Assembly: GCA_049274945.1 (NCBI GenBank)
Contig: JBASTP010000009.1
Span: 4,441-68,440 of the forward strand
Length of the DNA stretch: 64,000 bases
From: Patescibacteria group bacterium
Lineage (GTDB): Bacteria > Patescibacteriota > UBA1384 > GWA2-35-9 > JBASTP01
Direction: 5' to 3'
Shown: positions 34,318-57,344 of the stretch, in pieces
Layout of the letters: each line of letters begins with the position of its first letter
Numbering within the stretch: position 1 is the first letter of the stretch
Notes under the pieces: model-generated
Told to the model about the DNA's origin: nothing
The model's input: only the letters and a program-made list of their open reading frames with translations
The model's database searches: none
Translations under genes and position numbers: made by a program

Positions 34318-35259
34318 ATGACGATCTATGATCTACTCATTATTGGCGCCGGGCCAGCCGGCATCGAAGCCGCCCTCCAGGCCGCGGCGCGCGGTCTTAG
34401 CTATTTGCTAATCGATAAGTTCGACGCCGGCTCGCTGATTGAGCAGACCATGAATAACAAAAAGTTCTACCAGATTTATGGCCGAAACGTCGATCTTTTG
34501 AAAGGTACTCTTGCCTTTCCCGATCGTGCCAAAGGGTACGAGCTCGTTGCGCTCTGGAAGCAGCAAGTCGCGCCGCTCGCGTTCCACAAAAACGAGTCGC
34601 TCAAGACCATTACCCGTTCTGGCCAGGAACCATTTGTCGTTACTACCACCAAAGATCAGTATCAGGCCCGGTATGTGCTCCTTACGAGCGGCACGTTCGA
34701 ACATCACAAAACCCTCCAAGTGGATGGCGAGCACGGCAACCCAAAAGTCCACTACACCCTCGACTACTACCAGGACTACCGCGACCAGGCGGTGGTAGTG
34801 GTGGGCGGCGGCAACACGGCGCTCGAGACCGCGATTTATTTTGGCGATGCCAACAAGGTAACTTTGCTCGTTCGTCGGGACCGTTTTACCGAGAGCGCGA
34901 CCGAGGCAAACCAGATGGCGATCCGCGAGTTGGTACAAAAAGGTACGCTGCACGTGGTCTACCATGCCGCGGTTATGCAGATTACGCCCCAGGAGATAGC
35001 CGTCCAAACCGGCCAAGGCCCACTCACGCTACCGTACGATTTGCTTTTTGTTCATATTGGTTTTGAAAAGCCAACCGATTTTCTAGCAAGCCTTGGCCTG
35101 CAGGTGCGTAACGGCGAGCCGGTGTACAACGAAAAGTTTGAGTCTAACATCCCGGGCCTCTACATTGCCGGTGCGCTCACCGGCTCGGATTCAATCGTAG
35201 AATGCGCCAACCAAACCTACCAAGTCGTCCACCAGTTGCCTAATTCCCCTGGCATTTAG
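34318..35259 (+). CDS. Pyridine nucleotide-disulfide oxidoreductase (thioredoxin-reductase-like)
   Basis: YDLLIIGAGPAGIEAALQAA FAD site and VVVVGGGNTALETAIYF NAD(P) site; start placed at the ATG at 34318 (MTIYDLL). Confidence 0.75.
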   Translation: MTIYDLLIIGAGPAGIEAALQAAARGLSYLLIDKFDAGSLIEQTMNNKKFYQIYGRNVDLLKGTLAFPDRAKGYELVALWKQQVAPLAFHKNESLKTITRSGQEPFVVTTTKDQYQARYVLLTSGTFEHHKTLQVDGEHGNPKVHYTLDYYQDYRDQAVVVVGGGNTALETAIYFGDANKVTLLVRRDRFTESATEANQMAIRELVQKGTLHVVYHAAVMQITPQEIAVQTGQGPLTLPYDLLFVHIGFEKPTDFLASLGLQVRNGEPVYNEKFESNIPGLYIAGALTGSDSIVECANQTYQVVHQLPNSPGI

Positions 35260-35278
35260 CCTCACGATTGGGTATACT
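35250..35278 (+). promoter_or_regulatory. Conserved sigma70-like promoter of cassette copy 1 (TGGCAT-17-TATACT)
   Basis: Near-identical to the element at 37799..37827, including the shared GCATTTAGCCT core. Confidence 0.4.
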
Positions 35279-35321
35279 ATAGCTGCAACAAATCTGAAAA
35301 AAACGGAAAGTGAACTTCCTT

Positions 35322-35444
35322 ATGGAAATGGAAGAATGGGACTGGGAACACACTATTTTTGGGAGGATTCTCCTGCTCTTTGCGAGCATTATTGGGTTTA
35401 CCGCATGGGACATTTACTGGTCACTCTTCAGTGAGCGGCGGTGA
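35322..35444 (+). CDS. 40-aa hydrophobic micropeptide (cassette copy 1)
   Basis: MEMEEWDWEHTIFGRILLLFASIIGFTAWDIYWSLFSERR; paralog of peptide 37880..38005; stop overlaps the next start region. Confidence 0.45.
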   Translation: MEMEEWDWEHTIFGRILLLFASIIGFTAWDIYWSLFSERR

Positions 35445-35449
35445 ACTCC

Positions 35450-35776
35450 ATGATATCGATCATAACCAAGTATCGGCATAGGCGTCGAAGACAAGTCAGT
35501 GCGCAAATCAATTTTCCACCGGATCAATACCAAGGCCCCTGGATATGGAATAAGGTGGTTGGAGCATTTCTGGTTGCGGTTGCGGGGGCGCTTCTTTTCA
35601 ATTACTTTTTGCCATGGTCCATCATAACGTTTTTTTTGGAACCTCTCCGATATCCAATCGCATACGTAGCTCGCGTGTGCGATTTTTGTTATTTGCATTA
35701 TCAGCAGAGTAGTGTCAATATATATCTTGACCTTGCAGTTGGTCTCGCCCTTAAACAATTGACGGGAGATGATTAA
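35450..35776 (+). CDS. Small 2-3-TM membrane protein (cassette copy 1)
   Basis: QGPWIWNKVVGAFLVAVAGALLFNYFLPW parallels YGFWTWDRIFFGLLVASVGSLITLFFGPYW in 38015..38356. Confidence 0.5.
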   Translation: MISIITKYRHRRRRQVSAQINFPPDQYQGPWIWNKVVGAFLVAVAGALLFNYFLPWSIITFFLEPLRYPIAYVARVCDFCYLHYQQSSVNIYLDLAVGLALKQLTGDD

Positions 35777-36884
35777 TATGTTTTTGCCCGGTGAATCGCA
35801 ATTGCTCGACGTAATGACTCGTGTTGCCGCTCAGAAGGATCATGGGATTGGCCACGTCCTGCGCGTTGGCTGCTACGTTCGGCTGATTATGGAAAAGACA
35901 GGGGGCTTTACGCCGGAAGCTTGTGAGCGAGTAGAGATGATTGCCCGCATCCACGACATTGGCAACACCGTGATCCTCGATACGATCCTGGATAAACAAG
36001 ACCCTCTAATCGATTGGGAACGATTGGAAATTGCCCAACATTCGGTAGCCGGTTGTGAAATGTTAGGCAATGTTTTTCATGAATTTTTGCCAATGATCCG
36101 CCACCATCATGAAAATTGGGACGCGAGCGGTTATCCCGATCACCTGGCTGGCGAACGAATTCCGCCTATGGCCCGGATTCTGCGGATGGCTGACGCCTTT
36201 GACGCCATGACCAGTTGGCGGCCGTACCGCATAAATCCGATCAATGTTGATCAAGCTATCCAGCAATTAAGAACCAAAGCCGGAATCGAGTTTGACCCAA
36301 AGCTCGTGCCAGTATTTGCGGACCAGGTTGATAAAATCAGCGCCATCATCAAGTGGATAGGCAATAGTACGCCACTCCATCATGACAGTCGTCTGGCGAT
36401 TGACTTTAACGTTATTGCTGGAGGGGCGGCCCTTACTGACGCATGGCATAGTAAGAGCCATGCGTTCCTAAATTTTCCGGAGAATCCCGGCGTGGTTGAC
36501 TTGCTTCGGGAACTTTCCTGCCGCTACTTCCGGGGTTGGGTTTTTATCTGGCCAAACTCGTCGAGAGAATGGAATGATCACAAGCAAGACCAGTGGTTAC
36601 GCCACCACCATGTTTTCGATCGCGCCTGCATTGCAAATTGGTCACTGGACTATTATATGTGTAATGTTGTTACAGCGTGCCGAGATTCGGCAATCTCACA
36701 CTTCATCGGATATGATCCAGAAACCCTCAAAAAACTATTGGGAATAGTGCCGAACTTATACCTTTTCAGACGAGATTCACTTCGCATCCCTGTCGACTTA
36801 AGGATTAAGGTTGCTAACTCAACCCAGCAACTCACTAATTCGATCATCCAACCCTGGCCCATGGCAATTCCTCCAGAGGCGTAA
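35769..36884 (+). CDS. HD-GYP domain protein (c-di-GMP phosphodiesterase family) with uncharacterised ~170-aa C-terminal domain
   Basis: HDIGNTVI ... HHHENWDASGYPDHLAGERIPPMARILRMADAFDAMTSWRPYR is the HD-GYP signature. Confidence 0.8.
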   Translation: MINMFLPGESQLLDVMTRVAAQKDHGIGHVLRVGCYVRLIMEKTGGFTPEACERVEMIARIHDIGNTVILDTILDKQDPLIDWERLEIAQHSVAGCEMLGNVFHEFLPMIRHHHENWDASGYPDHLAGERIPPMARILRMADAFDAMTSWRPYRINPINVDQAIQQLRTKAGIEFDPKLVPVFADQVDKISAIIKWIGNSTPLHHDSRLAIDFNVIAGGAALTDAWHSKSHAFLNFPENPGVVDLLRELSCRYFRGWVFIWPNSSREWNDHKQDQWLRHHHVFDRACIANWSLDYYMCNVVTACRDSAISHFIGYDPETLKKLLGIVPNLYLFRRDSLRIPVDLRIKVANSTQQLTNSIIQPWPMAIPPEA

Positions 36885-36992
36885 CGCCACGACGCCCAAG
36901 CACCTTTACGGTGCTCTTTTTTGTCCTCTCAGGCGTACATAGAGGCGTACATACGATTTTTATCCCGCTCGTCGGGTAAGAAACCCCAAAGA

Positions 36993-37760
36993 CACTTCCG
37001 AAGTGGGAATAGGTTACACATTGGTACATTTTTGACAATTGTTGTATGTTAGACTTATGGCACGCCGAAAAGAAATACTCGCAACCGGAGAAATTTACCA
37101 TGTGTTCAATAGGTCGATAGACAATAAAACTATTTTCAACTCCTCAATAGAGTTAAACCGCTTTTTGAATTTAATAAGGTTCTATGGATGTCTCAGGCCA
37201 ATCCGATTCTCTAAATTAACCGTCCAGCAACGAGAACTAATGATCAAGAAAAACGGTGGCGAGCCAATTGTTGAAATCATCTGTTATTGCTTGATGCCTA
37301 ATCATTTTCACTTATTGCTTAAACAGCTAAATGAAGGAGGCATTACCTCTTTTTTACGAAAAATCAGTGATGGATACAGTCGTTACTTTAATCTCATTCA
37401 TCACCGTGCTGGACCATTATTTCAAAACAATTTTAAAGCAGTCAGAATAGCTACTAACGAACAATTGCTCCATGTTTCTCGATACATTCATCTTAACCCT
37501 CTCACTGCCTATTTAGTTAATAATCTTGACGACTATCGTTGGTCTTCTTACCACGAATATATTAGCAGTAGTGACCTGAGGAATAGTGATTTCACCTGCA
37601 ACAAGAAATTAATTCTGGATCAATTCAAAAAGAAGTCCGGTTATCGAGCATTTGTGTTAGACAATGCGAATTACCAGAAAAAGTTAAAGGAAATCCAATA
37701 TCTTCTTATCGAGAATCCGACATAATTACCGAAGTGACACCTGAAGACACTTCGGAAGTG
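36993..37760 (+). mobile_element. REP-associated tyrosine transposase (RAYT) unit: gene plus flanking CACTTC(C/G)GAAGTG palindromes
   Basis: Palindrome CACTTCCGAAGTG at 36993..37005; hairpin CCGAAGTG-acacctgaaga-CACTTCGG at 37729..37756 immediately after the stop; AT-rich gene. Confidence 0.55.
37039..37725 (+). CDS. IS200/IS605-like Y1 HUH transposase of the RAYT (TnpA-REP) type
   Basis: HUH motif CYCLMPNHFHLLLK and catalytic-Tyr motif SRYIHLNPLTAYLV (compare E. coli RAYT HMHCIW / YIYINPVKHGWV). Confidence 0.8.
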   Translation: MLYVRLMARRKEILATGEIYHVFNRSIDNKTIFNSSIELNRFLNLIRFYGCLRPIRFSKLTVQQRELMIKKNGGEPIVEIICYCLMPNHFHLLLKQLNEGGITSFLRKISDGYSRYFNLIHHRAGPLFQNNFKAVRIATNEQLLHVSRYIHLNPLTAYLVNNLDDYRWSSYHEYISSSDLRNSDFTCNKKLILDQFKKKSGYRAFVLDNANYQKKLKEIQYLLIENPT

Positions 37761-37798
37761 TCCGGAATCACCAGGATCAGCATTCGCGCTTCTGCGGC

Positions 37799-37827
37799 TT
37801 GCATTTAGCCTGGAAATTGGTTACAGT
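37799..37827 (+). promoter_or_regulatory. Conserved sigma70-like promoter of cassette copy 2 (TTGCAT-17-TACAGT)
   Basis: Shares the GCATTTAGCCT core and downstream CTGAAAAA / GAAAGTGA blocks with copy 1. Confidence 0.4.
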
Positions 37828-37879
37828 GTGTGGGCAATCAACCTGAAAAATAGAAAGTGAGGTATTCCTAGTGGGCGAG

Positions 37880-38005
37880 ATGCAATGGAACCGGGAACAC
37901 GGTGTCTTGGGGACGCTGCTCCTGGGCTTCTTGAGCCTTATTTGGTTTTCTGCGTACGAGATTTACTGCTATCTTGTACCGCGCGGTGGTAATAACCGGA
38001 GGTGA
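37880..38005 (+). CDS. 41-aa hydrophobic micropeptide (cassette copy 2)
   Basis: MQWNREHGVLGTLLLGFLSLIWFSAYEIYCYLVPRGGNNRR; paralog of 35322..35444. Confidence 0.45.
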   Translation: MQWNREHGVLGTLLLGFLSLIWFSAYEIYCYLVPRGGNNRR

Positions 38006-38014
38006 CTGAATGCA

Positions 38015-38356
38015 ATGAAACCTTGGTATAAATCCCCACATACCATACGCCTTCCCGACACCTTCCCGGAGGGGGAAGAGTATTATGGATTCTGGACCTG
38101 GGACAGGATTTTTTTCGGCCTCCTGGTCGCCTCGGTTGGGTCGCTGATTACCCTGTTTTTCGGCCCGTACTGGTTTGAGCATCTCTGGCATACCGGTTCA
38201 ATCGTCTGCGGTTTTGCCTGGAGTTTTCTGCTGATGTGCAAAAGCAAGGTTCCTTGGCAGGAACGATTTGGGATGTGGCTTTTCGGAGCGGCGTTGATTG
38301 GCGCCATAATATATCTCGCCCTCATTATTTACGGCATTCAGGCCGCAAGCGCATAG
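38015..38356 (+). CDS. Small 3-TM membrane protein (cassette copy 2)
   Basis: 113 aa; paralog of 35450..35776; chosen over the overlapping minus-strand ORFs. Confidence 0.5.
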   Translation: MKPWYKSPHTIRLPDTFPEGEEYYGFWTWDRIFFGLLVASVGSLITLFFGPYWFEHLWHTGSIVCGFAWSFLLMCKSKVPWQERFGMWLFGAALIGAIIYLALIIYGIQAASA

Positions 38357-38371
38357 CGCTGTGCGGTTTTT

Positions 38372-39658
38372 TTGTTGCCTGAACTGGCATATAATGATGG
38401 AAGGATGGGACTGCTGAATATCTTTTCGGGTAAAGGCCTGGCCAATTGGGCGATCTCGCTTGACATCGGCACCGAGTTTATTAAGAGTATGATTTTTGAG
38501 GTCAAGGACGGCAAAGCGCACATTAAGGGCGTGGGCCGGAGCCGCCAAAAACTTTCGGACATGCAGGGCGGGGTGGTCACCGATATCGCCGGGGTAATTG
38601 GGAGCTGCGAAAAATCGCTCGAGTTGGCAGTTGAACAGGCTAAGGTGCTCCCCAAGCAAGTGATCATTGGGATTGCCGGGGAGCTCGTGAAAGGCACCAC
38701 CACTGCGGTTCACTACGAACGGGCTAAACCGAAAAGCCAGATTGACTTACCCGAACTCAAAGAGATTATCACCAAAATCCAGCGGCAGGCGTTCGACAAG
38801 GCGCGGCGCACCCTGGCCTGGGAAACCGGCCATGCCGAGATCGACGTGCGCCTGGTGAATGCGGCAATCGTGGATGTAAAAATCGACGGCTATAAAGTAA
38901 CCAATCCCTTGGGATTCCAGGGTAAGGATGTGGAGGTGGGGGTATTCAACGCCTTCGCGCCGATTGTCCACCTGGGCGCACTCCAGACGATCGCCGAAGA
39001 GCTCCAGCTCGATTTGCTCTCCGTCGCCCCGGAGCCGTACGCCGTGGCCCGAGCGGTGTCGGAGGACGAGTCCGTTGAGTTCTCGGCAATTTTTGTGGAC
39101 ATTGGCGGCGGCACCACCGACGTGGCACTGGTGCGCGCCGGCGGAATCGAGGGTACCAAGATGTTTGCCATGGGCGGCCGCACCTTCACGAAGCGGATTG
39201 CGGAGGAGCTGGGCGTGCCGTTCCAAAAAGCCGAGGAGCTCAAACTGGAATATTCAGATAAAAGTTTGCCGAGCGTAAAAACCAAGCAGATTGCCGAGTT
39301 TCTCGAACTCGATTGCGATGTGTGGGTTGAGGGGCTCAGAATCGTGCTCGAGGAGTTTGGCGCAACCGACCTGCTGCCCTCCCGAATATTGCTGTGCGGC
39401 GGCTCCTCCCAGCTGCCCGATATCTACCAGAGACTCTCTGCCAAAGAGTGGGTGAAGGATTTGCCCTTTGCCCGCAAGCCGGTGGTGCAGTTTATCAAAG
39501 CGGCAGAAGTATCACGCGTGGTAGACGACACCGGGTCGGAGCGGGACGCCGCCGACATCACGCCTATGGCGCTCGCAAACCTGGCGACCGATCTGGTTGG
39601 CCACCCGGCACCGGTTGAGGGTGTATTATCAAAAGTAGTGGAAACGCTGAGAAGCTGA
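38372..39658 (+). CDS. ftsA: Cell division protein FtsA (actin-like ATPase)
   Basis: ISLDIGTEFIKSMIFE (phosphate 1), VDIGGGTTDVALVRAG (phosphate 2), LLCGGSSQLP (adenosine motif). Confidence 0.85.
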   Translation: MLPELAYNDGRMGLLNIFSGKGLANWAISLDIGTEFIKSMIFEVKDGKAHIKGVGRSRQKLSDMQGGVVTDIAGVIGSCEKSLELAVEQAKVLPKQVIIGIAGELVKGTTTAVHYERAKPKSQIDLPELKEIITKIQRQAFDKARRTLAWETGHAEIDVRLVNAAIVDVKIDGYKVTNPLGFQGKDVEVGVFNAFAPIVHLGALQTIAEELQLDLLSVAPEPYAVARAVSEDESVEFSAIFVDIGGGTTDVALVRAGGIEGTKMFAMGGRTFTKRIAEELGVPFQKAEELKLEYSDKSLPSVKTKQIAEFLELDCDVWVEGLRIVLEEFGATDLLPSRILLCGGSSQLPDIYQRLSAKEWVKDLPFARKPVVQFIKAAEVSRVVDDTGSERDAADITPMALANLATDLVGHPAPVEGVLSKVVETLRS

Positions 39659-42686: not shown

Positions 42687-42962
42687 ATGAAAACCGCCAA
42701 GTTGCCCTCGTTTTTCCAATCAATTTTTTGGGACACCCGGCTTGCAAATATTGACTACAAAAAACATTCCCGCTATGTGATCGAGCGTGTGCTCCAGTGG
42801 GGCAGGCCCCAGCACGTACGCTGGCTACTCGGCCACTATTCGAAACGCATGATTTTGCATGTGGCAAAAACCGGGCGGGAAGTCCGCCCAGAGCGCAAAT
42901 ATTTCTGGAAGTTCTATTTAACTCACCAACGAAAAAAACGAACAAAATTATATGCACACTGA
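42687..42962 (+). CDS. Small basic hypothetical protein, candidate partner (antitoxin/regulator) of the AbiEii-like gene
   Basis: 91-aa ORF directly upstream of, and overlapping by 11 nt, the AbiEii-like gene; no family recognised; AT-rich. Confidence 0.4.
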   Translation: MKTAKLPSFFQSIFWDTRLANIDYKKHSRYVIERVLQWGRPQHVRWLLGHYSKRMILHVAKTGREVRPERKYFWKFYLTHQRKKRTKLYAH

Positions 42963-43575
42963 AGCGCTTGCTCCAAAAACAAAAAAAGCTTTCGAGCTAC
43001 TTGGAACCGTGGAGATGATCCAACAATTTTATTTGGCAGGTGGTACTGCGGCCGCATTATATCTTGGCCATCGGTCCTCCCACGATCTTGATTTTTTTTC
43101 AACTCAAAGATTTGATTCGGAATTACTAAGACTTGAACTCGAAAAGGTAGGGAATCTTGCAATCGAATTCAAAAAAAAAGATACCTTGCTAGGAAAGTTT
43201 AACGGGGTAAAAATTAGTTTTTTTTATTACCCGTACCCCTTGATTCAACCGTTGGCTTACTTTGACTCAGTTGCTATCACCAATCAAAAAGATATTGCAG
43301 CAATGAAAATTAATGCGATTGCTGGTCGCGGGATTAAACGAGATTTCATTGATCTCTACTCACTCATGGAAGCCAATCATTGGCGATTGATTGAAGTAAT
43401 AGCGTGGTTCATGAAAAAATACAAAAAATCAAATTACAACATGGTGCACGTTCTCAATGCGTTAATTTATTTTGAGGATGCTGACAAAACCCCGATTCCA
43501 AAAATGATCACACCGATTGATTGGGGAAAGATTAAAGAATATTTCCGCGATGCGGTCAAAGAAATTGAACTGTAA
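42952..43575 (+). CDS. AbiEii/AbiGii-family nucleotidyltransferase (type IV toxin-antitoxin toxin-like; DUF1814)
   Basis: FYLAGGTAAALYLGHRSSHDLDFFS matches the family hallmark (GGTAL...R.SxDLDF); strongly AT-rich versus flanks. Confidence 0.7.
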   Translation: MHTEALAPKTKKAFELLGTVEMIQQFYLAGGTAAALYLGHRSSHDLDFFSTQRFDSELLRLELEKVGNLAIEFKKKDTLLGKFNGVKISFFYYPYPLIQPLAYFDSVAITNQKDIAAMKINAIAGRGIKRDFIDLYSLMEANHWRLIEVIAWFMKKYKKSNYNMVHVLNALIYFEDADKTPIPKMITPIDWGKIKEYFRDAVKEIEL

Positions 43576-50074: not shown

Positions 50075-50728
50075 GTGCCAGTCGAGAAAAAGCAAATCTA
50101 TCGGCAACTGGGCGTCGTATCGGTAAAATTATTATTGCTATCGCTCTTTGATGTTGCGGCACTCTTCGGAAGTTTGGATCATAGAAAACGGTATGCTCGA
50201 GCATATGACGAATATTTAACGTGGCGAGCCAAGGATTATCGCCGTTTTTATCGCCTTGTCTATCGTTTAAAAACCGCGGGGCTTATAGCAACGTATCAAG
50301 AAGGTAAACAACGATTCATAGAGTTGACACCCGAAGGAAAGCGAAAAATTGTCCACTACCTTTTTGAAGATGGGAAAGTGCCGTTGCCCAAGTCGTGGGA
50401 CGGTAAATGGCGCGTCGTAGTGTTCGACATACCGGAAAGTCAAAAGCCAGTCCGTGATGCGGTGCGCCAGTTACTCAATCGGGTTGGATTTTACCAACTG
50501 CAGCGGAGTGTTTATATCTATCCTCATGACTGCGTAGGAATTATCCGATACCTCGAACAGATCTATGATATTAACGAATATGTTCAGTTCATGGTTGCCG
50601 AACGGGTAGAAACTGAAGAAGACCTCATTGCTTTATTCCATGATCGGGGGATTATTAAACGAATAGTAAAGCTATCTGGTAAAAATAAATTAGGCAATAA
50701 CGAATCGACATATAGAAACGATCGCTGA
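50075..50728 (+). CDS. PaaX-like winged-helix regulator (Cas2-like C-terminal fold)
   Basis: WDGKWRVVVFDIPESQKPVRDAVRQLLNRVGFYQLQRSVYIYPHD matches the PaaX C-terminal domain. Confidence 0.6.
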   Translation: MPVEKKQIYRQLGVVSVKLLLLSLFDVAALFGSLDHRKRYARAYDEYLTWRAKDYRRFYRLVYRLKTAGLIATYQEGKQRFIELTPEGKRKIVHYLFEDGKVPLPKSWDGKWRVVVFDIPESQKPVRDAVRQLLNRVGFYQLQRSVYIYPHDCVGIIRYLEQIYDINEYVQFMVAERVETEEDLIALFHDRGIIKRIVKLSGKNKLGNNESTYRNDR

Positions 50729-52390: not shown

Positions 52391-55042
52391 ATGAAATTTC
52401 TTGAGCGTATTTTTGGTGATCCCTCACAACGAGTTGTTAAAAGGACTCGATCGGTAGTTGATCGTATCAATGCCCTCGAGCCTGACTACGAGAAATTATC
52501 CGACGCGGAATTGAAGGAACTAACGAGGAAGTTTAAAGAAAGAATAGCTAAGGGCACAACAGCTGATGAGTTGGCTCCGGAGGCTTTTGCTGCCGTGCGC
52601 GAGGCGGCCAAGCGATCAATCGGCCAGCGCCACTACGATGTGCAGCTCACCGGTGGCATGGTGCTCCACCAGGGCAAAATTGCGGAGATGAGAACCGGTG
52701 AGGGTAAAACTCTTGTGGCCACCCTGCCGCTCTACCTTAACTCACTTGCCGGCAAGGGTGTTCACCTGATTACGGTCAACGACTTTTTGGCAAAGTTTCA
52801 TGCCCAGTGGATGGGGCCGATCTATGAGGCCCTGGGTATTACGGTGGGGGCAATCGGACACGAAGCTTCGTTTATCTACCGGGGTGAGCCCCGCGAGACC
52901 GATGATCCCACCTGGCGCAACCTTTGGCCAATCTCACGCAAGGAAGCCTACTTGGCCGACATTACCTATGGCACGAACAACGAGTTTGGCTTCGACTACC
53001 TGCGCGACAATATGGTGTATTCAGCCGAGTCACGGGCACAGCGGCCGTTCCACTACGCCATCGTCGACGAGATTGATTCAATTTTGATTGATGAAGCGCG
53101 GACCCCACTCATCATCTCTGCGCCTGCCGAAGAGTCGGCTTCCTGGTACCAGCGTTTTGCCGAGCTTACCCCCAGGCTGAGGCCTGGAGAGGATGTCGAA
53201 ATCGATGAGAAGCTGCGTTCCACCACACTCACCGACCCTGGTATCAAGAAAATGGAGCAGCTCCTCGGTATGCCTAATCTGTATGATCCGCAACATGTTT
53301 CGATGGTGCACCACTTAGAACAGGCTTTGCGTGCGCAGTTTATGTACCAGAAAGACAAAGACTATGTGGTAAAAGATGGCGAAATCGTGATTGTGGATGA
53401 GTTTACCGGTCGGCTGATGCTCGGGCGGCGCTATTCAGAAGGGTTGCACCAGGCGATCGAGGCAAAGGAAAAAGTCGAGGTGAAACGCGAATCAGATACC
53501 TTGGGCACAATTTCATTCCAAAACCTTTTCCGGCTCTACCCTAAACTTGCTGGCATGACGGGAACCGCTAAGACCGAAGAAGAAGAGTTCTGGCGGATTT
53601 ACGGGCTTGAGGTGGTGGTGATCCCAACCAACCGGCCGATGGTGCGGGTGGATCACCAAGACAAGATTTATAAAACTGAGGAAGCGAAGTTCGCCGCAGT
53701 AGTGGCTGATGTTAAAGAACATTACGAGCAGGGCCAGCCGGTCTTGATCGGCACAATCTCAATTGAAAAAAACGAACAGCTCTCTAAACTCCTCAAACGC
53801 GAGGGTATCAAGCACGAGTTGCTCAACGCCAAAAACCACGAAGGTGAGGCTAAAATTATTGCCCAAGCGGGGCGCAAGGGTGCGGTAACATTGGCCACCA
53901 ACATTGCTGGCCGAGGTGTGGATATTTTACTTGGTGGCACGCCGCCTGGCGAGCAAGCCGCCACCCAAGAAGGCATGGCAACCCTGAGCAAGGATAAACG
54001 GACGATTCAAGATTGGCAGAAAGAGCACGAAGCGGTAGTCGAGGCAGGCGGGCTCCACGTGGTGGGTACCGAACGCCACGAGTCGCGCCGGATCGACAAC
54101 CAGTTGCGCGGCCGTGGCGGCCGGCAGGGCGACCCTGGCTCAAGCCAATTCTACGTTTCAATGGAAGACGATCTGATGCGTATTTTCGGCGGCGATCGGC
54201 TCAAGGCGTTAATGGATCGGCTAAAAGTGCCTGACGATATCCCAATCGAAAACTCGCTCGTTTCGAGCTCCATTGAACAGGCCCAGAAAAAAGTCGAAGG
54301 CCACAACTTCGATATTCGCAAGCACTTGCTCGAGTACGACGATGTTTTGAATAAACACCGCGAAGCGATCTACAAGAAACGCGGTTTTATTCTGGAAGGA
54401 AAAGGTAAGAACGCTGCCGGCGAGCCAATACCGCTCCACGAAGAGATTTTGGAAATCCTTGGTGATGGACGGGGTGAGTACGAGAAAAAATACGAAAAGT
54501 ACGGCGCGCAGCTGATGGACGGTTTGGAACAAACGGTTTACTTGCGGGTGATTGACACGTTTTGGATTGACCACTTGAACTTAATGTCGGATCTGCGCGA
54601 AGGGATCGGCTTGCGAGGCTACGCTCAGCGCGACCCGCTGGTCGAATATAAACAAGAAGCGTATCACCTCTACCAGCGCCTGCTACGTTCGATCGAGGAT
54701 GAAGTGGTAAATATCCTGACGAAGGTCGAAATCGCACCGCAACAAGTACCCCAACCTCAGTCCACGCCACGGCAACCTCAACAAATCCCCACGGCCGAGA
54801 AAATTGTTGAGGTAACACCTCAACCTACTGAGCCGTTAAAACCAGAACCAAAACTCCAGCCCAAGTCCTCAGGCGTAACGGTGACGGTTCGTAAAAAAGG
54901 AGAGAAGTCGATTACTCAATCACTTAATAACTCAGCCACTCAACCACTCTCACAATTACCCTCTGCTATTCCCAAAGTCGGTAGGAACGAGCCCTGTCCA
55001 TGCGGCAGCGGGAAAAAGTTTAAGCGGTGCCACGGCGCCTAA
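52391..55042 (+). CDS. secA: Preprotein translocase ATPase SecA
   Basis: [18 protein letters not shown]...; Walker [15 protein letters not shown]; DEAD-like [19 protein letters not shown]; C-terminal zinc finger [14 protein letters not shown]. Confidence 0.95.
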
Positions 55043-55052
55043 AGTAGCAGCT

Positions 55053-56039
55053 ATGAATCCAATCATTCCCCAAAAATTAAAGAGAGGCGATACCGTTGCA
55101 GTAATTGCTCCTTCTCGTTCTTTGGCAATGATTTCGCAAGAAACCCAAGATATAGCTAATCAGAGATTTGCAGAACTGGGTTTAACACTTGCCTTCGGTA
55201 AACATGTTCAAGAAAGAGACGAATTTGAATCATCAAATATAGAATCTCGTATCCAGGATCTGCACGCAGCTTTCACCGATTCTAATATCAAGGCTATTCT
55301 GACAGTCATCGGCGGTTTTAATTCCAATCAGCTCCTACGATATATTAATTGGGATTTACTTAAAGATAATCCTAAAATTTTTTGTGGCTACTCTGATATT
55401 ACGGTACTGAACAATGCGATCTTTACTAAGACTGGTCTGGTGAGCTATTCTGGGCCTCATTATTCTGCATTCGGAGAAAAGCTTTATCTCGATTACACAC
55501 TCGAATACTTTAAAAAATGTTTGATGTCCGATGAATCGTTTACTATTGAGCCGGCTAAAGATTGGTCTGATGATTTTTGGTGGAAGAATCAAGATGCTAG
55601 GGAACCAATAAAAAATGATGGCTGGCTGGTAATTAACGAAGGAAAAGCAAGCGGCACAATTCTCGGCGGAAATCTTTGTACGTTGAATCTTCTGCAGGGC
55701 ACAGAATATTTCCCATCGCTGGAAAATTCAATCCTCTTTTTAGAGGATGATGAAGAATCAATGCCATATCATTTCGATCGCGATTTGCAGTCAATTATTC
55801 ACTTGCCGGATTTTCCCAAAGTCAAAGGTTTGGTGATTGGCCGCTTCCAAAAAGCCAGCAAGATGAATAGCGAGCTACTCACAAAAATTATCAAAACGAA
55901 AAAAGAACTCGATAGCATCCCAGTGCTCGCATATGTTGATTTTGGCCATACGAGCCCCATGATTACCTTCCCAATCGGCGGAAAATTGGAAATGCAGGCG
56001 AGTGAATCCAGCTCGATCTTGCGAGTGGTAAAACATTAA
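55053..56039 (+). CDS. LD-carboxypeptidase (peptidase S66; LdcA/MccF-like)
   Basis: LKRGDTVAVIAPSRS N-terminus and S66 fold spacing; AT-rich gene. Confidence 0.75.
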   Translation: MNPIIPQKLKRGDTVAVIAPSRSLAMISQETQDIANQRFAELGLTLAFGKHVQERDEFESSNIESRIQDLHAAFTDSNIKAILTVIGGFNSNQLLRYINWDLLKDNPKIFCGYSDITVLNNAIFTKTGLVSYSGPHYSAFGEKLYLDYTLEYFKKCLMSDESFTIEPAKDWSDDFWWKNQDAREPIKNDGWLVINEGKASGTILGGNLCTLNLLQGTEYFPSLENSILFLEDDEESMPYHFDRDLQSIIHLPDFPKVKGLVIGRFQKASKMNSELLTKIIKTKKELDSIPVLAYVDFGHTSPMITFPIGGKLEMQASESSSILRVVKH

Positions 56040-56041
56040 AT

Positions 56042-56542
56042 ATGAAATTTATTTTTACAGTGAAAATTAAAGAAGGTCTAAACTGGATAGTCGCAATCCT
56101 CCGCAAGCACAAAATTCCGTTTCAAATTACAGGTGGGTTAGCTGCAAGGGTATATGGCTCAAAACGGCCGATCAACGATATTGATATAGATATTCCTGAA
56201 GAATATTTTGACCGTATCCTGAAAGATGTAAAACCATATATTATTTTTGGTCCTGCTCACTATCGAGATAAACGTTGGGATTTGCAGCTTCTCACTCTCA
56301 ACTATCATGGACAAGAAATTGATATCGGTGGTGCATATCAAACTAAGATTAATGATGCAAGAACTGGTAAATGGCGTGCGATGCCTAGCGATTTATCAAG
56401 AATAGTTAAGCACGAATTATTCGATATTACTTTGCCAGTTACTAATCCAGAGGATTTGGTAGATTATAAGCGTATGCTAGTAGGTGATCATCAAAAAGAA
56501 GATATCAGCGCTATTCTCAAATTCTTAAGAAAATCAGAATAG
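56042..56542 (+). CDS. Small nucleotidyltransferase of the ANT(2'')/Lnu(A)-like family
   Basis: FQITGGLAARVYGSKRPINDIDIDIPEE parallels ANT(2'')-Ia WIGGGWAIDARLG...HDDIDLTFP and Lnu(A) WLDGGWGVD...HRDIDID. Confidence 0.55.
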   Translation: MKFIFTVKIKEGLNWIVAILRKHKIPFQITGGLAARVYGSKRPINDIDIDIPEEYFDRILKDVKPYIIFGPAHYRDKRWDLQLLTLNYHGQEIDIGGAYQTKINDARTGKWRAMPSDLSRIVKHELFDITLPVTNPEDLVDYKRMLVGDHQKEDISAILKFLRKSE

Positions 56543-56547
56543 AGAAT

Positions 56548-56967
56548 ATGAAACTGGGCCACGTGCATATTAAAGTGCGAGACATTAAGCGAGCAGAAAC
56601 GTTTTATACCAAACTGCTGGGGTTTAAGGTGACGGAGCGATTTGAGGATCAGTATGTCTTCCTCGCCTTTGACAAAGCGCACCATGATTTAGCGCTAAAA
56701 AATGTTGGCGTTGATGCCCCTATTCCATCGCATAATTCGACCGGGCTTTACCACTTTGCATTTGAGGTGGCAAATGAGAATGAACTAAAGGCGCTATATC
56801 AAAAATTGAAACAAAACGGTATAGTGCTTACGCCCGTAGATCATGGCATATCAAAAGCATTTTATTTTTCCGATCCGGATGGTAATGGAATAGAAGTATA
56901 CGTTGATACTCGCCACAAGCGCACCGCGTGGGGCGGAAAAGAACTAGTTTTAGATTTGGAAAATTAG
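56548..56967 (+). CDS. VOC-family protein (glyoxalase / bleomycin-resistance / dioxygenase fold)
   Basis: MKLGHVHIKVRDIKRAETFYTKLLGFKV...YHFAFEV. Confidence 0.8.
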   Translation: MKLGHVHIKVRDIKRAETFYTKLLGFKVTERFEDQYVFLAFDKAHHDLALKNVGVDAPIPSHNSTGLYHFAFEVANENELKALYQKLKQNGIVLTPVDHGISKAFYFSDPDGNGIEVYVDTRHKRTAWGGKELVLDLEN

Positions 56968-57344
56968 CGCTCTAAAAGTTCTTTGATCGCGCCGAAGTAG
57001 TAATCGTCCCAGCCGTTCGCAAAACTTTTTACTTCTTCTTCTGGGAGATCGGTATGAATGAGCTCGACCCGTGTTTTGCCGTTTTCATCGGTAAGTTTGA
57101 TAGTTACCTTAGATGGTTTTTCCCAATCACCGCCAAACCAATCCTGAACCAGCTTTTTGTTTGGTACCACTTCGGTCGTGGTGCCGTGGATATCGCCGCC
57201 CCACAGGCTAAACTTGGTACCCACCTGATCGTTCATCTTCGCTGGCCCGGCACCCCAGCGATCAATAATTTTAGGGGTAACCAGCGCCTGCCACACGCTA
57301 CCAGGCGATGCGGCGATGAGGTAGGTCTTTTTAATCGTCTCCAC
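56964..57344 (-). CDS. SRPBCC-superfamily protein (AHSA1 / activator of Hsp90 ATPase-like)
   Basis: KTYLIAASPGSVWQALVTPKIIDRWGAGP...GWDDYYFGAIKELLE. Confidence 0.75.
   Translation of the reverse strand: METIKKTYLIAASPGSVWQALVTPKIIDRWGAGPAKMNDQVGTKFSLWGGDIHGTTTEVVPNKKLVQDWFGGDWEKPSKVTIKLTDENGKTRVELIHTDLPEEEVKSFANGWDDYYFGAIKELLER

What the first reader, a model, noticed from the sequence alone, without database searches (positions are those of the whole stretch)
36993..37760. RAYT-type tyrosine transposase flanked by CACTTC(C/G)GAAGTG palindromes
The HUH (NHFHLLL) and catalytic tyrosine (RYIHLNP) motifs identify a REP-associated tyrosine transposase. The perfect palindrome CACTTCCGAAGTG lies 34 nt upstream, and a hairpin CCGAAGTG...CACTTCGG sits directly after the stop. 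This matches the RAYT organisation with cognate REP flanks. The gene is AT-rich relative to the backbone. RAYT/REP systems are unexpected in a small, repeat-poor genome.
Basis: partly seen in the sequence, partly recalled or inferred. Interest (0 to 1): 0.6.

Follow-up and report, generated by a model that had tools for sequence, protein, structure and literature searches.

The report
Hairpin-flanked Y1 transposase cassette in CPR bacterium
A 774-base, AT-rich cassette in a small Patescibacteria (CPR) genome carries a RAYT-like single-strand DNA transposase gene between two copies of its own palindrome; it belongs to a large CPR-wide family built the same way, and no genome-wide repeat (REP) population was found.

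Summary
The ORF at 37057-37725 encodes a 222-aa HUH/Y1 enzyme (NHFH, RYIHLNP). Exact CACTTC[C/G]GAAGTG palindromes lie at 36993-37005 and 37748-37760, where shuffles give none. They sit inside a 17-nt direct repeat and 36-nt imperfect terminal inverted repeats.

The protein is class 2 TnpA_Y1 (Y---NP) and its best fold match is E. coli TnpA_REP. However, its motif signature is that of subclass 2.1/TIRYT, it misses the NCBIfam RAYT cut-off, and the hairpins lack the GT[AG]G foot. No other palindrome copy occurs in the remaining 63 kb.

The family is common in CPR, not unexpected. In 34 of 72 homologous loci the gene has a matched hairpin on both sides (null 6 of 794), with stems that differ between lineages.

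The cassette is 0.37 GC against 0.51 for the window. Two related Berkelbacteria lack it at this locus. A third carries a 65%-identical version, apparently at the same site upstream of ftsA, with synonymous divergence well above that of the host genes.

Best reading: a compact REPtron/TIRtron-like unit that is, or recently was, mobile as a whole. It is a new member of a known kind, of moderate interest.

The parts
36989..37762 (+). The whole cassette (774 bp): left end, Y1 gene, right end
   Evidence: The low-GC block (0.368 vs 0.512) coincides with it. Homology to the related element in L163 starts at 36989 and ends at 37762. The segment is 98.8% identical in L001, against 95.9% for the flank.
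36989..37005 (+). Left 17-nt repeat AAGACACTTCCGAAGTG, containing the 13-nt palindrome 36993-37005
   Evidence: ACACTTCCGA.GTG is invariant in the window, L001, L163 and L164. The same palindrome lies upstream of a 44%-identical homologue in L074.
36991..37026 (.). Left 36-nt imperfect terminal inverted repeat: outer palindrome, an 11-nt spacer, and the inner half-site CACATTGG (37017-37024)
   Evidence: Inverted repeat I1, 75% complementary. The inner site ACACATTGG is invariant in four related elements.
37057..37725 (+). Y1 (HUH) transposase-like gene, 222 aa. HUH is His83/His85 (37303-37311); the catalytic Tyr143 is at 37483-37485; the WSS tail motif is at residues 162-164.
   Evidence: Pfam Y1_Tnp scores 29.2 bits against a cut-off of 23. 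The invariant residues are listed. The AF2 model has pLDDT 90.6. The best fold match is 4er8_A TnpA_REP, E = 3e-7. Against L163, pN is 0.22 and pS is saturated, which indicates purifying selection.
37727..37762 (.). Right 36-nt imperfect terminal inverted repeat: inner half-site CCGAAGTG (37729-37736), an 11-nt spacer, and the outer perfect 17-nt palindrome GACACTTCGGAAGTGTC (37746-37762)
   Evidence: The ssDNA fold is -9.0 kcal/mol, z = -2.66. It is 92% identical (33 of 36) to the L163 right end, although the genes are only 69% identical in nucleotide sequence.
36957..36978 (+). Left junction: a remnant of the terminator/promoter spacer that precedes ftsA in relatives (GATTTTTATCCCGCTCGTCGGGTA)
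   Evidence: It aligns with the intact spacer of L162 and L077, GATTTTTTTATCCCG..GGGTATAATG. The Logan contig L161 is 100% identical to the window and ends at 36984.
37763..37792 (+). Right junction: a variable stretch of about 25-30 nt
   Evidence: The 96%-identical strain L001 has 102 nt here. That stretch includes an 18-nt tandem copy of the right palindrome arm and a remnant of the 3' end of a trxB-like gene.

Best explanation
The segment 36989-37762 is a compact, self-contained Y1 cassette. It carries one gene for a class 2 TnpA_Y1 (RAYT/TIRYT-like) HUH endonuclease. The gene is bounded by two copies of that enzyme's cognate palindrome, each set in a 36-bp imperfect terminal inverted repeat. 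This is a REPtron/TIRtron-like unit with no detectable dispersed repeat family.

Inferred mechanism, by homology with TnpA_REP and the IS608/ISDra2 TnpA: the enzyme binds the hairpins when the DNA is single-stranded. It cuts next to them with Tyr143, using a metal ion held by His83/His85, and forms a 5'-phosphotyrosine link. It then rejoins the ends. This would let the unit be cut out and pasted, and could also cause local rearrangements.

Shown here:
- the enzyme class and fold;
- the matched, lineage-specific hairpin pairs across the family;
- the foreign composition of exactly this segment;
- its absence from the same locus in two related genomes, and a more diverged copy at what appears to be the same site in a third.

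Inferred, not shown: that the enzyme is active, where it cuts, and that the unit moves as a whole.
For: Enzyme:
- Pfam Y1_Tnp scores above its cut-off.
- HUH, Tyr, N147/P148 and WSS are invariant in 28 sequences.
- The AF2 model has pLDDT 90.6.
- The best PDB fold is TnpA_REP bound to a REP hairpin, followed by the ISDra2 and IS608 TnpA structures.

Cognate ends:
- The exact palindrome pair has a chance expectation of about 0.
- 34 of 72 homologous loci have a perfect hairpin of at least 6 bp with the same stem on both sides of the gene, against 6 of 794 control windows.
- Stems differ between loci, for example CACTTC/GAAGTG, ACACCC/GGGTGT, TCCACC/GGTGGA and CAAAGGG/CCCTTTG.
- Ends are more conserved than the gene: 33 of 36 nt against 69% nucleotide identity.
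- A 44%-identical homologue keeps the same palindrome.

Mobility or horizontal origin:
- The GC drop of 0.37 against 0.51 coincides with the hairpin-bounded segment.
- The gene is AT-richer than its flanks in 39 of 39 long loci.
- L162 and L077 have trxB, a small gene and ftsA with an intact spacer and no cassette.
- L163 has a 65%-identical cassette after the small gene. Its pS is 0.93, against 0.39-0.50 for the flanking trxB and small gene, so the two cassettes are older than the host split.
- The sequence next to the right end differs between two strains that are 96% identical.
- There is no TnpB or other transposase among the 41 ORFs scanned with Pfam out of the 49 of at least 180 aa in the window.
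Against: - No second copy and no exact empty site were found.
- The window's cassette sits at the joint of an old, diverged duplication rather than in a simple insertion site.
- One homologue (P0117) is at the same locus in all 10 places shown, out of the 24 contigs read and 66 index blocks that list it, so it is stable there.
- Class 2 Y1 genes are reported as low-copy, and REPtrons as not transposing as units (PMC3333891, PMC5581495, PMC6006769).
- AT-richness is family-wide and so need not mean recent arrival.
- A pS of 0.93 is above the saturation level and may be inflated by the composition difference.
- The L163 contig ends 22 nt after the cassette, so ftsA downstream of it is only probable.
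- A few loci do carry extra solo or dimer hairpins (L140, L113, L090), which fits REP-like behaviour in trans.
Confidence: 0.6

Rival explanations
1. It is a classical RAYT/REP(IN) system. A single-copy, vertically kept RAYT flanked by its REPs maintains a genome-wide population of the CACTTC[C/G]GAAGTG palindrome in trans.
For: - The Y---NP class 2 motif is present and TnpA_REP is the best structural match.
- The gene is flanked by the palindromes.
- Some homologous loci have extra copies. L140 has an inverted dimer 1.2 kb away and a copy inside the gene; L113 and L090 have solo copies 1-2 kb away.
- Two diverged paralogues, each with its own hairpins, occur in L089 and L129, as described for RAYTs.
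Against: - There are no further copies in 63 kb, even with one mismatch, and half-sites are at chance level.
- Only 4 extra copies occur in 269 kb around homologues.
- The GT[AG]G foot is absent.
- The NCBIfam RAYT model scores below its cut-off.
- The motif signature is that of subclass 2.1, for which no REPs are known.
- The composition is foreign, and the cassette is absent from two relatives at this locus.
Confidence: 0.15
2. It is an immobile, domesticated or decaying Y1 gene. The flanking hairpins are relics or regulatory elements, such as binding sites for autoregulation. Presence and absence among relatives would then reflect deletions and recombination of a variable island, not movement of the cassette.
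For: - The locus is stable in one Levybacteria population.
- The region between trxB and ftsA is a rearranged island that also carries an orphan HD-GYP gene and a duplicated small gene.
- No multicopy evidence was found.
- The protein is under purifying selection.
Against: - The ends are more conserved than the gene, and they are matched within each element while differing between elements.
- The GC discontinuity coincides with the hairpin-bounded segment.
- Two cassettes in what appears to be the same spacer are more diverged than their hosts.
- The hairpins have no T-run, so they are not intrinsic terminators.
Confidence: 0.2
3. It is an ordinary IS200-group insertion sequence (TnpA_IS200, subclass 1.1).
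For: It is about 0.77 kb, carries a single tnpA-like gene, and has hairpins near both ends, which resembles IS200 itself. The fold matches IS608 and ISDra2 TnpA with TM about 0.6.
Against: - The Y motif is YIHLNP, not Y---Q.
- The HuH motif is NHFH, not DH[VI]H.
- The protein is 222 aa with a C-terminal tail, not about 150 aa (PMC6006769 Table 1).
- phmmer against the PDB finds only TnpA_REP.
- No tnpB is present among the window ORFs scanned.
Confidence: 0.03

Closest known systems
TIRYT / TIRtron (Di Nocera et al. 2013, PMC3733652), which corresponds to TnpA_Y1 subclass 2.1 of Quentin et al. 2018 (PMC6006769) and RAYT Group 1 of Bertels et al. 2017 (PMC5581495)
   Same: - The motif signature matches: NH[YF]H, the 'FQ' variant of the W motif, Y[IV]HLNP, and a proximal tail with SS.
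- The length is about 220-240 aa.
- The gene is flanked by terminal inverted repeats that can be partly or wholly self-complementary.
- Few or no other copies occur in the genome.
- The distribution is patchy.
   Different: - No Bac_DnaA_C, HTH_23 or HTH_28 C-terminal domain was detected by Pfam.
- The GGGGWSAS motif is absent from the repeats.
- Quentin et al. found no hairpin or REP-like flanks for subclass 2.1, whereas this CPR clade has tight matched hairpins in about half or more of its loci.
- CPR phyla are not mentioned in those studies.
E. coli TnpA_REP (RayT) and its REPtron (Ton-Hoang et al. 2012, PMC3333891; structure 4er8)
   Same: - It is the best sequence and fold match.
- It is a class 2 Y---NP enzyme.
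- The gene is bracketed by the palindromes that the enzyme binds as ssDNA hairpins.
   Different: - The match is only 16% identical over the aligned fold.
- The hairpins here have no GTAG guide.
- No dispersed REP/BIME population was seen.
- The cassette is compositionally foreign and is gained or lost as a unit, whereas REPtrons are described as not transposing as units.
IS200 (IS200/IS605 family, tnpA-only group)
   Same: It is a minimal element of about 0.7 kb with one Y1 gene and hairpins near both ends, with no tnpB. It inserts in intergenic DNA next to a terminator.
   Different: The enzyme belongs to a different class (Y---NP rather than Y---Q) and has an extra C-terminal tail. The ends form inverted repeats with the hairpins at the very termini. 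No multicopy evidence was found.

Membership tests
HUH Y1 transposase superfamily (Pfam PF01797 Y1_Tnp) | Profile match above the curated cut-off | tested here: met
   29.2 bits against a cut-off of 23, E = 1.1e-6.
HUH Y1 transposase superfamily (Pfam PF01797 Y1_Tnp) | An HUH metal-binding motif, a single catalytic Tyr and the Y1 fold | tested here: met
   His83-Phe-His85 and Tyr143 are invariant in 28 sequences. The model (pLDDT 90.6) matches TnpA_REP, ISDra2 and IS608 TnpA.
Class 2 TnpA_Y1 (TnpA_REP/RAYT in the broad sense, Quentin 2018) | Y motif Y---NP rather than Y---Q | tested here: met
   YIHLNP; N147 and P148 are invariant. The criterion is from PMC6006769.
RAYT / REPtron in the strict sense | NCBIfam equivalog REP_Tyr_transpos (NF047646) at or above its cut-off | tested here: not met
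   57.4 bits against a cut-off of 80.
RAYT / REPtron in the strict sense | Flanking palindromes carry a 5' GT[AG]G tetranucleotide at the hairpin foot | tested here: not met
   The feet read AAGA-CACTTC on the + strand and TTCC-/CGGA-CACTTC on the - strand.
RAYT / REPtron in the strict sense | The flanking palindrome is a dispersed repeat family, with tens to hundreds of copies per genome | tested here: inconclusive
   Only the two flanking copies occur in 64 kb, at 0-1 mismatch. The rest of the genome is not available. The scan of species-representative genomes found only 62 singleton stretches in other genomes, one of which (L074) is a true related element, and no genome with the pair.
RAYT / REPtron in the strict sense | A single-copy, vertically inherited gene | tested here: inconclusive
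   There is one copy in the window. It is absent at the locus in L162 and L077. A copy more diverged than the host genes occurs in L163. This argues against simple vertical descent, but genome-wide copy number is unknown.
TnpA_Y1 subclass 2.1 / TIRYT-TIRtron | Motif signature NHVH or NH[YF]H; W[EQ] or FQ; YIELNP or Y[IV]HLNP; proximal tail with SS; median length 238 aa | tested here: met
   NHFH, PLFQ, YIHLNP, WSS, 222 aa, compared with Table 1 of PMC6006769. This is a motif comparison only; the published subclass profiles were not available.
TnpA_Y1 subclass 2.1 / TIRYT-TIRtron | A distal C-terminal HTH domain (Bac_DnaA_C, HTH_23 or HTH_28) | tested here: not met
   Pfam at E <= 1 reports only Y1_Tnp. 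The model shows three short C-terminal helices at residues 184-219. The sub-group 2.1.2 is described as heterogeneous in this region.
TnpA_Y1 subclass 2.1 / TIRYT-TIRtron | The gene is flanked by terminal inverted repeats, with few or no other copies | tested here: met
   A 36-nt, 75% inverted repeat at 36991-37026 / 37727-37762, with no other copies in the window. The GGGGWSAS motif shared by some TIRs is absent.
IS200/IS605 TnpA (subclass 1.1) | Y---Q motif, DH[VI]H, and a core-only protein of about 150 aa | tested here: not met
   YIHLNP, NHFH, and 222 aa with a tail.
IS200/IS605 TnpA (subclass 1.1) | Several near-identical copies per genome, often with tnpB | tested here: inconclusive
   There is one copy and no tnpB among the 41 window ORFs scanned. 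No near-identical copies in different contexts were found among about 85 loci. The whole genome is not available.

The most novel reading that the evidence does not exclude
This CPR-wide clade would be class 2 (RAYT-like) Y1 elements that still transpose as whole units. They would use terminal hairpins the way IS200 does, with a preference for particular intergenic sites, here the terminator-promoter spacer just upstream of ftsA. That would make them a living intermediate between IS200-type insertion sequences and domesticated RAYT/REP systems, and one of the few mobile elements native to the very small CPR genomes.
Probability: 0.35. Interest if true: 0.55.

Novelty: new member of a known kind. 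Interest (0 to 1): 0.38.

Why it matters
CPR/Patescibacteria genomes are about 1 Mb and poor in repeats, and their mobile elements are little described. This cassette shows that a RAYT-like Y1 enzyme with its own hairpin ends is widespread there. It behaves as a discrete, compositionally foreign unit that is gained, lost or replaced at a fixed intergenic site next to an essential cell-division gene. If the unit is shown to move, it would bear on how IS200-like elements gave rise to RAYT/REP systems. It would also supply a very small hairpin-plus-enzyme pair for ssDNA cutting and joining. If it does not move, it is simply one more annotated 'transposase' of a known superfamily.

Tried and rejected
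- Genome-wide REP count. The scan of species-representative genomes for AAGACACTTCSGAAGTG returned 62 singleton stretches in other genomes. One of them, L074, turned out to be a true related element. No genome holds the pair, so the window's genome is not in that collection and the count could not be made.
- Exact empty site. The relatives L077 and L162 lack the cassette, but they also lack the HD-GYP gene and the second copy of the small gene. A clean filled-versus-empty comparison is therefore not possible for the window itself. The HD-GYP gene has no close homologue other than the same strain.
- Near-identical copies in different contexts. None were found among about 85 loci, though this is a weak test.
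- Inner half-site next to each hairpin as a family-wide rule. This was not supported statistically: 7-8 of 33 loci have one inside and 4-6 of 33 outside. It holds only for the window's close relatives and a 'CACC' subgroup.
- Hairpin orientation, direct or inverted, as a discriminator between IS200-like and REPtron-like layouts. Both occur in the family, and for the window it rests on one loop base.
- A formal covariation test on the hairpins. It was not run, because the hairpins had been selected for being palindromic and the test would be circular.
- Carriage on phages or plasmids. Only distant hits were found, at 35% identity or less.
- A promoter for the gene. The consensus scan found none on the + strand.
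- Known RNA families. None match in the region.
Full report
**Observation.** The + strand carries an ORF from 37039 (TTG) or 37057 (ATG) to 37725. An alignment with 27 homologues shows a conserved N-terminus starting at the ATG, so the product is 222 aa. His83, His85 (NHFH), Tyr143, Asn147, Pro148 (RYIHLNP) and W162-S-S are invariant or nearly so.

CACTTCCGAAGTG (36993-37005) and CACTTCGGAAGTG (37748-37760) are the only matches in the 64-kb window with 0 or 1 mismatch. Shuffles give 0.00 and 0.07 matches respectively. The 2-mismatch hits and the 8-nt half-sites elsewhere are at chance level.

The repeats extend beyond the 13-mers:
- a 17-nt direct repeat, AAGACACTTC[C/G]GAAGTG;
- a perfect 17-nt palindrome on the right, at 37746-37762;
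- 36-nt imperfect inverted repeats at 36991-37026 / 37727-37762, 75% complementary.

Each inverted repeat consists of an outer palindrome, an 11-nt spacer and an inner half-site. The left palindrome alone is a weak hairpin.

**The protein.**
- Pfam Y1_Tnp matches above its cut-off, at 29.2 against 23 bits.
- The NCBIfam equivalog for REP-associated tyrosine transposases matches below its cut-off, at 57.4 against 80 bits.
- By sequence, the only PDB relative is E. coli TnpA_REP, 4er8, at E = 0.023, with the HUH and Tyr motifs aligned.
- An AlphaFold model built from the alignment is confident, with pLDDT 90.6 and pTM 0.87.
- The model's best Foldseek match is 4er8_A, TnpA_REP bound to a REP hairpin (E = 3e-7, TM 0.70 on the target). 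The ISDra2, IS608 and IS200 TnpA structures follow, with TM about 0.6.

In the classification of Quentin et al. 2018 (PMC6006769, Table 1), Y---NP defines class 2 (TnpA_REP-like) and Y---Q defines IS200 TnpA. The combination NH[YF]H, 'FQ', Y[IV]HLNP, an SS tail and a length of about 238 aa is the signature of subclass 2.1. That subclass corresponds to Bertels' RAYT Group 1 and to Di Nocera's TIRYT. The window protein (NHFH, PLFQ, YIHLNP, WSS, 222 aa) fits that signature. This is a motif comparison, not a profile or tree placement. The HTH-type C-terminal domains described for subclass 2.1 were not detected by Pfam.

**Host and family.** The neighbouring ftsA product is 100% identical to a protein of a 'Patescibacteria group bacterium' on a 79.7-kb contig. 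That record annotates the Y1 gene as 'transposase' (MFY9484674.1). The nearest named relatives are Berkelbacteria.

The Y1 protein has more than 7,300 homologous 90%-identity clusters. At 50% identity there are 358 representatives at E <= 1e-30 and 8,464 at E <= 1e-10. The family is therefore common in these small genomes. No paper in the searched library links CPR with RAYT, REPIN or TIRYT, and Quentin et al. do not mention CPR phyla.

**The hairpins are a family feature.** Three homologues on long contigs (L002, L004, L014) and 80 metagenome loci were examined.

[quoted passage not shown] It is typically 20-70 nt before the start and 0-45 nt after the stop.
- The same test on 794 control window pairs gave 6 positives.
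- Many further loci have imperfect versions.
- Stems differ between loci: CACTTC/GAAGTG, ACACCC/GGGTGT, TCCACC/GGTGGA, TGTACACC/GGTGTACA, CAAAGGG/CCCTTTG and others.
- Close relatives of the window's element keep the same ends. This holds for L001 (99% aa identity), L163 (65%), L164 (60%) and L074 (44%).
- Both direct and loop-inverted arrangements occur in the family.

Outside the immediate gene flanks, only 4 additional hairpin copies were found in 269 kb. These extra copies are informative. L140 has an inverted dimer 1.2 kb away and a copy inside the gene. L113 and L090 have solo copies 1-2 kb away. L111 and L108 have doubled copies at one end. Two loci carry two diverged paralogues, each with its own hairpins. 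There is thus limited REP-like proliferation in some members, but nothing like a REP population.

**Composition and context.** The cassette is 0.368 GC against 0.512 for the window, and the drop coincides with the hairpin-bounded segment. GC3 is 0.39, against 0.53-0.70 for the neighbouring genes. The gene is AT-richer than its flanks in 39 of 39 long loci, with a median difference of -6 points. This fits a selfish or horizontally moving gene, but it also means AT-richness alone does not date the arrival.

None of the 41 ORFs scanned with Pfam (out of the 49 of at least 180 aa in the window) encodes a TnpB or another transposase. The remaining 8 were overlapping antisense ORFs or had been assigned by homology. 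The related genomes compare as follows.

- **L162 and L077 (no cassette).** L162 is Candidatus Berkelbacteria, GCA_016196985.1. Both have the order trxB-like gene, small membrane-protein gene, ftsA. Their spacer is intact, with a terminator, a TATAAT box and the ftsA start. They have no Y1 cassette and no HD-GYP gene.
- **The window.** The unit [trxB 3' end - spacer - small gene - terminator/promoter spacer] is present twice, at about 70% identity. An orphan HD-GYP gene is inserted in the first copy; its best non-self hits are 46% identical or less. The Y1 cassette sits exactly at the joint. Its left flank is the ftsA-type spacer up to GGGTA (36957-36978). Its right flank is a remnant of the trxB 3' end in strain L001, shortened to about 25 nt in the window.
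- **L163 (a diverged cassette).** This third relative has the trxB-like gene, the small gene, the spacer and then a Y1 cassette. About 22 nt that resemble the ftsA start follow it before the contig ends. Homology between the two cassettes begins at 36989 and ends at 37762. The right end is 33 of 36 nt identical, although the genes are only 69% identical in nucleotide sequence.

Between the window and L163, the proportion of synonymous differences is 0.50 for trxB and 0.39 for the small gene. For ftsA, which cannot be compared with L163, it is 0.48-0.51 against L162 and L077. For the Y1 gene it is 0.93, which is saturated, while pN is 0.22. The two cassettes therefore appear older than the split of their hosts, and the protein is under purifying selection.

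This pattern is best explained by independent arrival or replacement at the same spacer, or by a long-lived presence/absence polymorphism. Simple vertical descent fits less well. Two further hints are weaker. A Logan contig that is 100% identical to the window ends at 36984, 4 nt before the left repeat. The sequence abutting the right end differs between the window and the 96%-identical L001, and L001 has an 18-nt tandem copy of the palindrome arm there.

**Interpretation.** Identifying the cassette as a class 2 Y1 enzyme with cognate terminal palindromes is secure. Of the known layouts, the TIRtron of Di Nocera et al. fits best. A TIRtron is a RAYT-like gene flanked by inverted repeats that may be self-complementary, with few or no other copies, found in species without REPs.

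The cassette differs from a REPtron in lacking the GT[AG]G foot and a dispersed repeat family. [quoted passage not shown] It differs from IS200 in enzyme class and protein size.

The mechanism is inferred from the homologous enzymes: hairpin recognition on ssDNA, cleavage by Tyr143 with metal bound to the HUH motif, a 5'-phosphotyrosine intermediate, and rejoining. Neither the activity nor the cleavage positions were tested here.

I put 0.6 on the reading that the cassette is, or recently was, mobile as a whole. The rivals are a true RAYT/REP system (0.15), an immobile domesticated or relic gene (0.2), and IS200 proper (0.03).

**Limits.**
- No clean empty site and no second copy were found.
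- The subclass assignment rests on motifs.
- A pS above the saturation level suggests an effect of the composition difference.
- The L163 contig ends just after the cassette.

**Verdict.** This is a real, well-formed feature that is already annotated as a transposase. It is a new member, from an undescribed CPR clade, of a known kind of Y1 element. Interest is moderate, mainly for the consistent hairpin architecture in a subclass reported to lack hairpins and for the apparent site-specific turnover next to ftsA.

Noticed in passing
window 35195-35776, 36930-36978 and 37793-38404: The unit [trxB-like 3' end - spacer - small membrane-protein gene - terminator/promoter spacer] occurs twice at about 70% identity. 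The small ORFs at 35441-35776 and 38015-38356 are diverged paralogues. Relatives L162, L077 and L163 have only one copy. The Y1 cassette sits exactly at the duplication joint.
   Followed up: partly
window 35769-36884: An HD-GYP domain gene is inserted in the first copy of the duplicated unit. Apart from the same strain (L161, 100% identical), its best homologues are 46% identical or less over half the protein. Those that carry an organism name are non-CPR bacteria. It is probably a separate horizontal acquisition.
   Followed up: partly
L001 899-1005, against window 37763-37792: The 96%-identical strain has 102 nt where the window has about 25 nt, right after the right palindrome. The stretch includes an 18-nt tandem duplication (CGGAAGTGTCCGGAAGAT) and a remnant of the 3' end of a trxB-like gene. 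A similar tandem copy of the hairpin arm plus tail follows the right end in L002 and L074.
   Followed up: partly
window 36931-36954: The tandem 12-nt repeat AGGCGTACATAG / AGGCGTACATAC is a degenerate copy of the terminator hairpin that ends the small gene in relatives (GCACGCGTAGCCACGCGTGC).
   Followed up: partly
window 42952-43575: An AbiEii toxin (type IV toxin-antitoxin nucleotidyltransferase) gene lies in a low-GC patch, 0.44 GC over 43-44 kb. It is probably another mobile or acquired gene.
   Followed up: no
window 50075-50728 and 55001-57000: More low-GC stretches, at 0.40-0.42 GC. The first encodes a protein with a PaaX_M (Cas2-like) domain. The second holds an LD-carboxypeptidase gene and an unannotated stretch.
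   Followed up: no
L077 2239-3922: A restriction-modification cassette (N6_N4_Mtase, NmeDI_C and HinfI domains) lies between ftsA and the next conserved gene in this relative. It is absent from the window, where the two genes are 39 nt apart.
   Followed up: no
L140 227-272 and 1646-1662: The cognate hairpin of this homologue forms an inverted dimer, like a REPIN or BIME, 1.2 kb upstream of the gene. A further copy lies inside the Y1 reading frame without breaking it. This has been described for TnpA_Y1 subclass 2.4.
   Followed up: partly
L074 5001-5075 and L014 10700-10830: In L074, labelled 'uncultured Gammaproteobacteria', a 44%-identical cassette with the same CACTTCCGAAGTG palindrome lies about 25 nt downstream of a tRNA-Gln gene. 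In L014 the cassette lies next to what looks like a tRNA gene on the - strand (not checked with ARAGORN), whose 18-nt 3' end is duplicated about 90 nt away.
   Followed up: partly
L089 6001-6654 and 9510-10157; L129 334-969 and 4007-4640: Two diverged Y1 paralogues, 45% and 33% identical in amino acids, lie within 4 kb of each other. Where hairpins are visible, each paralogue has its own.
   Followed up: partly
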